NCBI RefSeq assembly: GCF_057098645.1
Contig: NZ_CM169472.1
Strand: one strand, 5' to 3'
Length of the DNA stretch: 64,000 nt
The notes under the pieces were generated by a model that worked only from the letters and a program-made list of their open reading frames with translations, searched no databases and was not told the origin of the DNA. The position numbers and the translations under genes were made by a program. Of the stretch, positions 63,409 to 63,697 are shown in pieces. Position 1 is the stretch's first letter. Each line of letters begins with the position of its first letter.

Positions 63409-63697
63409 TCATTCGCTCGCGCTGGCATCTACAGAGAGCATGGTAGATAGCATAAGAAATATCCACGCCGAAGATAAAATTTTCTCCATCTTGATCTAAC
63501 CCATTAATTATTGAGCATAATGTAGGCAGTATAAAATAAATTAGGCGGGATATCAGGCGTCAAGAATGGAGAGCGAGAACTCTCCATTCTTGACACCTGA
63601 TATTGCGGACATATTAAGAAAGCATAACGCCTGAAATGCTCACTTTGCATCAGCATGGTGATACAGCTGATGTTTATTCTAAAACCTTACTCAAGTT

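What the first reader, a model, noticed from the sequence alone, without database searches (positions are those of the whole stretch)
63550..63603. Near-perfect 24-bp inverted repeat between ymgC and pdeG
atatcaggcgtcaagaatggagag - cgagaa - ctctccattcttgacacctgatat forms a 24-bp stem with one mismatch and a 6-nt loop. This is much longer than a typical intrinsic terminator and has no clean T-run, so it may be a protein-binding palindrome, an RNA processing element or a repetitive extragenic element, lying between two genes tied to the biofilm/c-di-GMP network.
Basis: seen in the sequence. Interest (0 to 1): 0.3.

Follow-up and report, generated by a model that had tools for sequence, protein, structure and literature searches.

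The report
Long single-copy hairpin after ymgC
The 54-base inverted repeat between ymgC and pdeG is real, occurs once per genome and only in E. coli, and most likely folds in the RNA into a 25-base-pair hairpin that marks the end of the ymgC operon transcript, though no experiment yet shows what it does.

Summary
It is the longest close inverted repeat in the window and about 3e-7 such repeats are expected by chance.

The window is E. coli. ymgC and pdeG both lie on the minus strand, so the repeat sits 95 nt after the ymgC stop codon and 184 nt before the pdeG start. On that sense strand the single mismatch is a G·U pair, which gives an uninterrupted 25-bp RNA helix (-42 kcal/mol).

It is not a repeat family. 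There is one locus per genome, no phage copies, no Rfam family, and ymgC itself is confined to E. coli. It is not a canonical intrinsic terminator, because no U-tract adjoins the stem.

Across 5,426 complete genomes there are two forms: an uninterrupted helix (about 3,165 genomes) and a form with a 4-nt insertion and an internal loop (about 1,705). The G·U pair is restored to C-G in 71 genomes and to U-A in 153. Every wobble change in the intact helix is G·U on the sense strand.

Best reading: an RNA hairpin at the operon boundary, probably an RNase III substrate or a 3'-end barrier. Confidence is moderate to low.

Rivals: the 3' arm carries the -35 box published for pdeG, or the repeat is a neutral product of template-switch mutation.

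The finding is ordinary in kind and modestly interesting.

The parts
63550..63603 (-). The whole hairpin, read on the sense strand of ymgC and pdeG: AUAUCAGGUGUCAAGAAUGGAGAG-UUCUCG-CUCUCCAUUCUUGACGCCUGAUAU. It forms 25 contiguous pairs (24 from the arms plus the U-G pair that closes the loop) around a UCUC loop.
   Evidence: The MFE of the 54-mer is -42.3 kcal/mol on the sense strand and -37.5 on the antisense strand.
63580..63603 (-). 5' arm of the sense-strand hairpin. This is the most variable part of the region among E. coli alleles; a 4-nt insertion plus substitutions here create an internal loop in about 35% of genomes.
   Evidence: Mean haplotype diversity is 0.13-0.18 here, against about 0.03 in ymgC.
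63574..63579 (-). Loop. It reads UUCUCG in the window and K-12 form, CGCUCG in the insertion form, and UUUUCG in one variant.
63550..63573 (-). 3' arm of the sense-strand hairpin. It is nearly invariant among alleles.
   Evidence: diversity 0.016-0.045.
63558..63563 (-). TTGACG inside the 3' arm. This is the -35 hexamer proposed for a constitutive sigma-70 promoter of ycgG (pdeG): TTGACG-19-TATTTT.
   Evidence: Shimada et al. 2014, PMC3946193. The string was located in the sequence. No transcription start site data were found.
63533..63538 (-). TATTTT, the -10 hexamer of the same published promoter guess, with a 19-nt spacer. It overlaps an alternative consensus match, CTGATA-17-TATACT (63556..63528).
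63590..63595 (+). Mirror-image TTGACA (a perfect -35 consensus) in the other arm, facing ymgC in antisense. The best -10 match is TATTAA after 16 nt. It is absent from the insertion-type alleles.
   Evidence: Read directly from the sequence. There is no experimental support.
63528..63545 (-). U-rich stretch (CCUAAUUUAUUUUAUACU) that begins 5 nt after the stem. It is too far from the stem, and preceded by CCCGCC, to count as a canonical terminator tail.
63620..63641 (-). Small conserved stem-loop (GAGCAU-UUCAGGCGUU-AUGCUU). Its loop holds AUUUCAGGCGU (63637..63627), a near-copy of the start of the 5' arm that is complementary to the end of the 3' arm.
   Evidence: (I6).
63698..63946 (-). [quoted passage not shown] Its stop codon lies 95 nt upstream of the hairpin.
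61843..63366 (-). pdeG (ycgG), a CSS-EAL c-di-GMP phosphodiesterase. Its start codon lies 184 nt downstream of the hairpin.

Best explanation
The repeat acts as RNA. [quoted passage not shown] That hairpin marks the boundary between this operon and pdeG.

The most likely mechanism has two parts. A helix this long is a substrate for RNase III, whose dimer accommodates about 22 bp, so read-through RNA would be cut inside the stem and pdeG would be uncoupled from the upstream operon. Any transcript that ends at or just after the hairpin would be shielded from 3' exonucleases. Weak hairpin-dependent termination at the U-rich stretch a few bases downstream may also contribute.

Shown: the structure, its position, its single-copy status, and the strand-asymmetric pattern of variation. 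Inferred: that it is transcribed through, that RNase III cuts it, and that this matters for expression of ymgC or pdeG.
For: (1) Both flanking genes are on the - strand, and the operon is reported to give a single polycistronic mRNA (PMC3509220), so the repeat lies in sense RNA 95 nt after the ymgC stop.

(2) The one mismatch is G·U on the sense strand and C·A on the antisense strand.

(3) In all 10 distinct alleles the sense RNA folds better than the antisense RNA, for example -25.8 against -16.6, -28.6 against -16.8 and -39.6 against -29.0 kcal/mol.

(4) On the sense strand 95% of cells pair, and the apical 10-bp helix pairs in 100% of alleles. Five pairs switch between G-C and G·U, or run U·G / C-G / U-A, and none becomes A·C within intact helix.

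(5) The G·U pair is restored to Watson-Crick in two different ways: U to C in 71 genomes and G to A in 153 genomes, against about 2,880 genomes that keep G·U.

(6) No canonical intrinsic terminator exists anywhere in the 330-nt spacer. ymgC mRNA is one of the rare E. coli mRNAs not polyadenylated by PAP I (Mohanty & Kushner 2006), which fits an unusual 3' end.

(7) Gordon et al. 2017, Table S1, lists the ymgC-ycgG spacer (position 1217246, 102 nt 3' of the hairpin at 1217091-1217144) among positions covered in the rnc deletion mutant (41 reads) but not in the wild type (0 and 1 reads).

(8) The helix length exceeds the roughly 22 bp accommodated by RNase III (Altuvia et al. 2018).
Against: No 3' end, 5' end or cleavage has been mapped in the hairpin. 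Term-seq in K-12 called no 3' end after ymgC (Adams et al. 2021), though the operon is poorly expressed under those conditions.

The Gordon et al. hit is low-count and rests on a single mutant library. Neighbouring positions 1215537 and 1218492 are also listed, so it may reflect higher expression of the whole locus in the rnc mutant rather than a specific cut.

About 35% of genomes carry a form with a large internal loop, so the perfect helix is dispensable.

All G·U-creating differences are C/T differences on the sense strand. Strand-biased deamination could produce the same asymmetry without any RNA constraint.

There is no double (both-sides) compensatory change, and the shuffle control shows no excess covariation.

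Restoration of the G·U pair could come from template-switch mutation rather than selection.
Confidence: 0.42

Rival explanations
1. The element acts as DNA, as part of the pdeG promoter. The conserved 3' arm carries the -35 box (TTGACG) of a sigma-70 promoter for pdeG, and the dyad provides a mirrored -35 (TTGACA) on the other strand. The palindrome would modulate RNA polymerase, H-NS or regulator binding, or extrude as a cruciform. The RNA hairpin would then be incidental.
For: Genomic SELEX with the RpoD holoenzyme gave a peak in the ymgC>ycgG spacer, with an H-NS site, and the authors named TTGACG-19-TATTTT as the promoter. That TTGACG is at 63563..63558, inside the 3' arm. The 3' arm is nearly invariant while the 5' arm is hypervariable, as expected if only one arm carries a sequence-specific signal. 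One allele improves the box to TTGACA. The consensus scan also finds CTGATA-17-TATACT starting in the 3' arm. Either DNA strand folds at about -25 kcal/mol.
Against: The promoter is a sequence guess placed under a low-resolution SELEX-chip peak, and its 19-nt spacer is poor. No transcription start site for pdeG was found. Promoter-like matches in this AT-rich region are no more frequent than in shuffles (3 found, 2.2 expected). A promoter needs only one arm and does not explain a 24-bp dyad. No transcription-factor operator is this long. The mirrored TTGACA is lost in 35% of genomes. The sense-strand asymmetry of the wobble pairs is not predicted by a duplex-DNA site.
Confidence: 0.2
2. The repeat has no function. 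It is a neutral by-product of local inverted duplication or of template-switch ('quasi-palindrome') mutation, which copies one arm from the other during replication and so makes and keeps arms complementary. It sits in a recently acquired, E. coli-specific, AT-rich spacer.
For: ymgC, pdeG and the spacer are confined to E. coli. The two main forms differ by a cluster of changes within 11 nt of one arm (a 4-nt indel plus 3 substitutions), typical of a single complex event. The mismatch has been removed in both possible directions, as quasi-palindrome correction would do. The internal-loop form is common (about 1,705 genomes), so the perfect helix is not required. No experimental signal is tied to the site. 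IS3 and IS1 insertions in or next to it are tolerated.
Against: In the intact helix all five variable pairs stay paired in the sense RNA. The apical helix is kept in every allele, including the internal-loop forms. In the uninterrupted-helix group, 2 of the 3 mutational events seen in the 54 nt hit the single G·U pair, which needs either selection or a very specific mutational bias. No nearby template for the divergent 5'-arm sequence was found.
Confidence: 0.3
3. The repeat is a member or remnant of a dispersed repeat or mobile-element family (REP/BIME, a MITE, or an IS end).
For: It lies in an intergenic 3' position, as REP elements do. IS elements were found inserted in it (IS3) and beside it (IS1).
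Against: There is a single locus per genome. It has no phage copies and no true plasmid copies, and no Rfam family matches. It has no flanking direct repeats and no element-like ends.
Confidence: 0.03
4. The repeat lies inside a small protein-coding gene, the 50-aa ORF at 63656..63504 on the - strand.
For: the ORF listing reports an ATG-initiated 50-aa ORF that spans the hairpin.
Against: The 4-nt insertion alleles frameshift this ORF and introduce stops in about 35% of genomes.
Confidence: 0.02

Closest known systems
RNase III processing hairpins in bacterial and phage mRNAs (lambda sib retroregulation of int; the rpsO-pnp and rnc leader hairpins; the T7 R1.1 signal)
   Same: A long, mostly Watson-Crick stem-loop in an untranslated or intercistronic part of an mRNA, with a helix at least as long as the roughly 22 bp the enzyme spans. 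Like sib, it lies downstream of the coding region, so a cut would expose the upstream message to 3' exonucleases and sever the downstream gene.
   Different: No cleavage is shown here. The helix is more perfect than the classical substrates, which have internal loops. About 35% of strains carry a bulged form. The only rnc-dependent signal in the literature is weak and lies about 100 nt away.
Intrinsic (Rho-independent) terminators
   Same: A stable hairpin after the last gene of an operon, with U-rich sequence downstream.
   Different: The stem is 24-25 bp at 42% G+C, against the usual 5-14 bp G+C-rich stem. The 8 nt after the stem are CCCGCCUA, not a U-tract. ymgC mRNA lacks the PAP I polyadenylation that Mohanty & Kushner associate with such terminators.
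REP / BIME repetitive extragenic palindromes
   Same: An extragenic palindrome 3' of a gene that could stabilise the upstream mRNA.
   Different: REP elements occur in hundreds of copies with a shared consensus. This is a unique sequence at a single locus.
Quasi-palindrome template-switch mutation hotspots in E. coli (established knowledge from my own recall, not checked in the library: Ripley's model; the thyA and lacZ QP reporters of the Lovett laboratory)
   Same: An imperfect inverted repeat whose natural variants remove the imperfection by making one arm the exact complement of the other, in either direction. The difference between the two haplogroups is a clustered, complex change.
   Different: This is a population polymorphism, not a measured mutation spectrum. 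Single transitions can arise by ordinary mutation. No templated origin could be shown for the insertion allele.
Terminator or boundary hairpins that overlap the next gene's promoter
   Same: The 3' arm of the hairpin contains a published candidate -35 box for pdeG.
   Different: Neither the termination nor the promoter has been demonstrated at this site.

Membership tests
Intrinsic terminator | Short G+C-rich stem (about 5-14 bp) with a small loop | tested here: not met
   The stem is 24-25 bp with 10 of 24 G+C per arm. The terminator scan found 0 sites in 63200-64000.
Intrinsic terminator | A U-tract (7-9 nt, mostly U) immediately 3' of the stem | tested here: not met
   The sense strand after the stem reads CCCGCCUAAUUUAUUUU; the U-rich run starts 5-8 nt away.
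Intrinsic terminator | A mapped RNA 3' end 7-9 nt after the stem | tested here: inconclusive
   Adams et al. 2021 Term-seq tables list no + strand 3' end near K-12 1217144. The operon is poorly expressed under those conditions.
RNase III substrate | An intramolecular or intermolecular dsRNA helix of about two turns (roughly 20-22 bp or more) | tested here: met
   25 contiguous pairs on the sense strand. The enzyme's valley fits about 22 bp.
RNase III substrate | rnc-dependent cleavage in vivo or in vitro, with staggered cuts that leave 2-nt 3' overhangs | tested here: inconclusive
   Gordon et al. [quoted passage not shown] This lies 102 nt from the hairpin, the counts are low, and neighbouring loci are also listed. 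The supplement of Altuvia et al. 2018 is not held.
RNase III substrate | Absence of antideterminant base pairs in the proximal and distal boxes, and a match to the in vivo pair-preference profile | not testable with these tools
   The profile is given only as a figure, and the cut sites are unknown.
REP/BIME or other dispersed repeat | Many copies per genome that share a consensus | tested here: not met
   There is one locus per genome. The second BLAST place is the same locus on the opposite strand.
Curated RNA families (Rfam 15) | A score at or above the family's gathering threshold | tested here: not met
   The best hits are eukaryotic miRNA-precursor models at 29.6 and 19.9 bits, against thresholds of 100 and 93. 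These are generic long-hairpin matches.
Transcription-factor operator palindrome | A short dyad (usually 22 bp or less in total) that matches a known factor's motif, with demonstrated binding | not tested
   The dyad spans 54 bp. Only RpoD-holoenzyme SELEX and an H-NS mark are reported for the spacer. No motif library was available.
Sigma-70 promoter (pdeG) | -35 and -10 hexamers with a 16-18-nt spacer and a mapped start site | tested here: inconclusive
   TTGACG-19-TATTTT (published guess) and CTGATA-17-TATACT both start in the 3' arm. Matches are no more frequent than in shuffles (3 against 2.2), and no start-site data were found.
Quasi-palindrome template-switch hotspot | An imperfect inverted repeat with variants that convert one arm into the exact complement of the other | tested here: met
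   Alleles GGCGUCAA/UUGACGCC (71 genomes) and GGUGUCAA/UUGACACC (153 genomes) both perfect the G·U form.
Quasi-palindrome template-switch hotspot | An elevated mutation rate at the site that depends on replication or exonuclease genotype | not testable with these tools
   This needs mutation-accumulation or reporter experiments.

The most novel reading that the evidence does not exclude
The hairpin is a strain-variable insulator. In strains with the perfect helix, RNase III severs read-through RNA, so the c-di-GMP phosphodiesterase gene pdeG is uncoupled from the blue-light- and cold-induced ycgZ-ymgABC operon. In strains with the bulged form (B2, D, O157:H7 and others), read-through persists and couples pdeG, or the truncated ycgG2, to that signal. 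The two forms would be interconverted and 'polished' by template-switch mutation, which would make this a natural example of a quasi-palindrome evolving under RNA-level selection.
Probability: 0.12. Interest if true: 0.5.

Novelty: new member of a known kind. Interest (0 to 1): 0.25.

Why it matters
If the hairpin is an RNase III or 3'-end boundary element, it sets how far transcription of the BluR/BluF-controlled ycgZ-ymgA-ariR-ymgC biofilm operon spills into pdeG. The two common alleles, perfect and bulged, would then give different E. coli lineages different wiring between blue-light/cold signalling and c-di-GMP turnover.

It is also a clean natural case for asking whether long hairpins are kept perfect by selection on RNA or by templated mutation.

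If it is neutral, it is simply an unusually long hairpin in a young, AT-rich, H-NS-bound spacer. The practical value is then limited to warning annotators that it is neither a terminator nor a repeat.

Tried and rejected
(1) Repeat family: rejected. Window search, 5,426 E. coli genomes, self-BLAST, plasmids and phages all show a single locus.

(2) Rfam: only sub-threshold miRNA-precursor look-alikes.

(3) Canonical terminator: none found.

(4) Small ORF across the hairpin: frameshifted in the insertion alleles.

(5) Outgroups to polarise the alleles:
- The search for related loci with YmgC in genome contigs matched 71 pattern stretches but confirmed none.
- A conserved 24-mer found nothing there.
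- The protein search showed YmgC is essentially confined to E. coli.
- The one divergent ymgC (82% identity, L006/L007) loses homology about 50 nt after the stop, before the hairpin.
- The ancestral state therefore stays unresolved. Phylogroup does not help either, because the insertion allele is found in O157:H7 and D-type strains as well as in B2.

(6) Template for the divergent 5' arm: no nearby donor of 9-mer length or more beyond chance.

(7) Transcript-end data:
- Adams et al. 2021 has no 3' end there.
- The SMRT-Cappable-seq supplements do not mention the genes.
- The supplements of Altuvia et al. 2018 and Dar & Sorek 2018 are not held.
- Tschowri et al. 2009, Thomason et al. 2015 and Ju et al. 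2019 are not held.

(8) RprA, a reported partner of ymgC in RIL-seq and TRIC-seq: the best predicted duplexes fall in the ymgC coding end and upstream, not in the hairpin. Not pursued further.

(9) SrsR gSELEX paper: concerns bluR, not this spacer.

(10) One literature search was badly framed and returned only generic terminator papers.

Full report
**1. The observation**

The repeat is exactly as described. Its arms are 63550-63573 and 63580-63603, 24 nt each, 23 of 24 complementary, with the spacer CGAGAA.

It is the longest close inverted repeat in the 64-kb window. The arm sequence has no other match at up to 3 mismatches, with 0 expected in shuffles. About 3.5e-7 such repeats are expected by chance in 64 kb. 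Folding energies lie 8-10 standard deviations below those of shuffled sequence, for RNA and for DNA on either strand.

**2. Context**

The window is E. coli, 100% identical here to O145 strain RM9872 and 98.7% identical to K-12. ymgC (63946..63698) and pdeG/ycgG (63366..61843) are both on the minus strand.

In the direction of transcription the hairpin therefore lies 95 nt after the ymgC stop and 184 nt before the pdeG start. ymgC is the last gene of ycgZ-ymgA-ariR-ymgC, which is reported to give a single polycistronic mRNA (PMC3509220). In K-12 MG1655 the hairpin is at 1217091-1217144. RefSeq annotates nothing there.

**3. What it is not**

- It is not a repeat family. 4,953 of 5,426 complete E. 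coli genomes have it, at one locus each. The 'two places' per genome are the same locus matched on both strands.
- It has no phage copies. The only plasmid hits are 14 E. coli 'non-mobilizable' records.
- It belongs to no Rfam family. Only sub-threshold miRNA-precursor models match, as they would any long hairpin.
- It is not a canonical intrinsic terminator. No terminator-like site lies in 63200-64000, and the stem is followed by CCCGCCUAAUUUAUUUU.
- It is not a coding sequence. The 50-aa ORF across it is frameshifted in a third of genomes.
- YmgC is confined to E. coli (PMC3509220), so there are no outgroups.

**4. Strand asymmetry**

On the sense (minus) strand the mismatch is G·U. The RNA then forms 25 uninterrupted pairs around a UCUC loop, at -42.3 kcal/mol for the 54-mer. 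The antisense RNA has a C·A mismatch and folds at -37.5 kcal/mol.

**5. Natural variation**

I collected 80 metagenomic loci through a conserved flanking 30-mer, plus genome loci. Together they give 10 distinct hairpin alleles.

| Form | Genomes (of 5,426) |
|---|---|
| Uninterrupted 24-bp helix, all variants | about 3,165 |
| - keeping the G·U pair | about 2,880 |
| - restored to C-G (5' arm U to C) | 71 |
| - restored to U-A (3' arm G to A) | 153 |
| 4-nt insertion plus 3 substitutions in the 5' arm (internal loop), with two G·U pairs near the loop | about 1,705 |

- The internal-loop form occurs in B2 strains, O157:H7 and others.
- Intermediates exist (L082, L009).
- In every allele the sense RNA folds better than the antisense RNA, by up to 12 kcal/mol.

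On the sense strand 95% of cells pair, and the apical 10-bp helix pairs in all alleles. Five pairs switch between Watson-Crick and G·U. None becomes A·C where the helix is intact; the two A·C cells lie in the already disrupted segment. If transitions fell on either strand at random, five out of five would have a probability of about 0.03.

Three caveats apply to this pattern:
- All of these are C/T differences on the sense strand, so strand-biased deamination could mimic the result.
- There is no change on both sides of a pair, and the shuffle control shows no excess covariation.
- Restoration of the G·U pair is also what template-switch correction of a quasi-palindrome would produce.

The 5' arm is the most variable stretch of the homologous region, with haplotype diversity of 0.13-0.18. 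The 3' arm is among the least variable, at 0.016-0.045.

**6. Literature**

No paper in the library describes the hairpin. Four results bear on it.

- Shimada et al. 2014 found an RpoD-holoenzyme SELEX peak and an H-NS mark in the ymgC>ycgG spacer and proposed the promoter TTGACG-19-TATTTT. That TTGACG is inside the 3' arm (63563..63558). The other arm mirrors it as TTGACA on the + strand.
- Mohanty & Kushner 2006 used ymgC mRNA as a negative control because PAP I does not polyadenylate it. Their 3' primer is named YMGC-355R. I take 355 to be a position counted from the ymgC start, which would place the primer at the 5' arm of the hairpin.
- Gordon et al. 2017, Table S1, lists 1217246 (the ymgC-ycgG spacer, 102 nt past the hairpin) as covered in the rnc deletion mutant (41 reads) and not in the wild type (0 and 1). 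The counts are low and there was one mutant library. Sites had to be at least 400 bp apart, and 1215537 and 1218492 in the same locus are also listed. The hit may therefore mean locus-wide up-regulation rather than a specific cut.
- Adams et al. 2021 Term-seq shows no 3' end after ymgC. Those growth conditions barely express the operon.

**7. Interpretation**

The best-supported reading is a sense-strand RNA hairpin at the boundary between the ycgZ-ymgC transcript and pdeG. A 25-bp perfect helix exceeds the roughly 22 bp that the RNase III dimer spans. I therefore expect read-through RNA to be cut in the stem, severing pdeG from the operon, and transcripts ending at the hairpin to be shielded from 3' exonucleases. 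Weak termination at the distal U-rich run is possible. The structure, position, copy number and strand-asymmetric variation are shown. Transcription through the site, cleavage and any effect on expression are inferred. Confidence is 0.42.

The rivals are:
- A DNA-level role tied to the pdeG promoter, because the -35 box lies in the conserved 3' arm (0.2).
- A neutral product of templated mutation in a young, AT-rich spacer (0.3).
- A dispersed repeat (0.03) or a small ORF (0.02).

The first two rivals are compatible with the main reading: a boundary hairpin can overlap the next promoter and can also be shaped by template switching.

**8. Novelty and score**

This is a new, undescribed member of a known kind: a long stem-loop in an untranslated or intercistronic region, probably an RNase III substrate. 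It is not a new kind of element. The allele dimorphism and the two-way repair of the G·U pair are the only mildly unusual points. Interest is 0.25.

Noticed in passing
L003 2501-3735 (E. coli strain A29, NZ_CP028746.1): An IS3 element abuts the hairpin at its loop: the match to the window ends at 63583. ymgC, ariR, ymgA, ycgZ and the 5' part of bluF are missing, so the hairpin's promoter-proximal arm and pdeG now sit next to IS3.
   Followed up: partly
L010 about 2890 onward (GCA_046507465.1): An IS1 end (GGTGATGCTGCCAACTTACTGAT...) is inserted about 25 nt downstream of the hairpin, between it and pdeG, in a strain that has the perfect hairpin.
   Followed up: no
L006 116-364 and L007 324-572 (GCA_017278115.1 / SRR23027952): A divergent ymgC (82% amino-acid identity), preceded by an ariR-like ORF, lies next to genes whose products hit the Pfam families Ni_hydr_CYTB, Gp_dh and Aldedh (I read these as cybB, gapC and aldA) instead of pdeG. 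Homology to the window ends about 50 nt after the stop codon, and there is no long hairpin. It may be a second copy of the module or a different insertion context.
   Followed up: partly
window 63620-63641 (- strand), especially 63627-63637: A small conserved stem-loop (GAGCAU...AUGCUU) carries AUUUCAGGCGU in its loop. This is a near-copy of the start of the 5' arm and is 10 of 11 complementary to the end of the 3' arm. It could compete for the 3' arm, especially in the internal-loop alleles, where GACGCC is unpaired.
   Followed up: no
window 61968-62028 (+ strand, antisense to pdeG): Adams et al. 2021 Term-seq lists RNA 3' ends antisense to pdeG at K-12 1218619-1218730. The flanking sequence given for one of them matches the window here. 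This implies an antisense transcript over the EAL-coding part of pdeG.
   Followed up: no
L002 1-465 and L005 1-397 (B2-type strains): pdeG is annotated as an N-terminally truncated pseudogene. This is the ycgG2 allele, which Zlatkov & Uhlin 2019 (PMC6385356) showed to encode an active stand-alone EAL phosphodiesterase from a TTG start. It co-occurs with the internal-loop hairpin, but the internal-loop hairpin also occurs with full-length pdeG (MRSN346647, O157:H7).
   Followed up: partly
window 63648-63672 (- strand): A second small hairpin (CAUCAGC-11 nt-GCUGAUG) lies 26 nt after the ymgC stop, also without a U-tract. The 330-nt spacer therefore has three stem-loops and no canonical terminator.
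   Followed up: no
Genome-contig collection: Six YmgC peptide patterns matched 71 stretches, but none was confirmed by tblastn. A 24-mer that is invariant in all E. coli loci examined here found nothing. The E. coli representative in that collection seems to lack or differ at this locus, or the confirmation step failed. This is unexplained.
   Followed up: no
K-12 1215537, 1217246 and 1218492 (Gordon et al. 2017, Table S1): Three positions across bluF-ycgZ, ymgC-ycgG and ycgG are all covered only in the rnc deletion mutant. This suggests the whole locus is more highly expressed or more stable without RNase III.
   Followed up: partly
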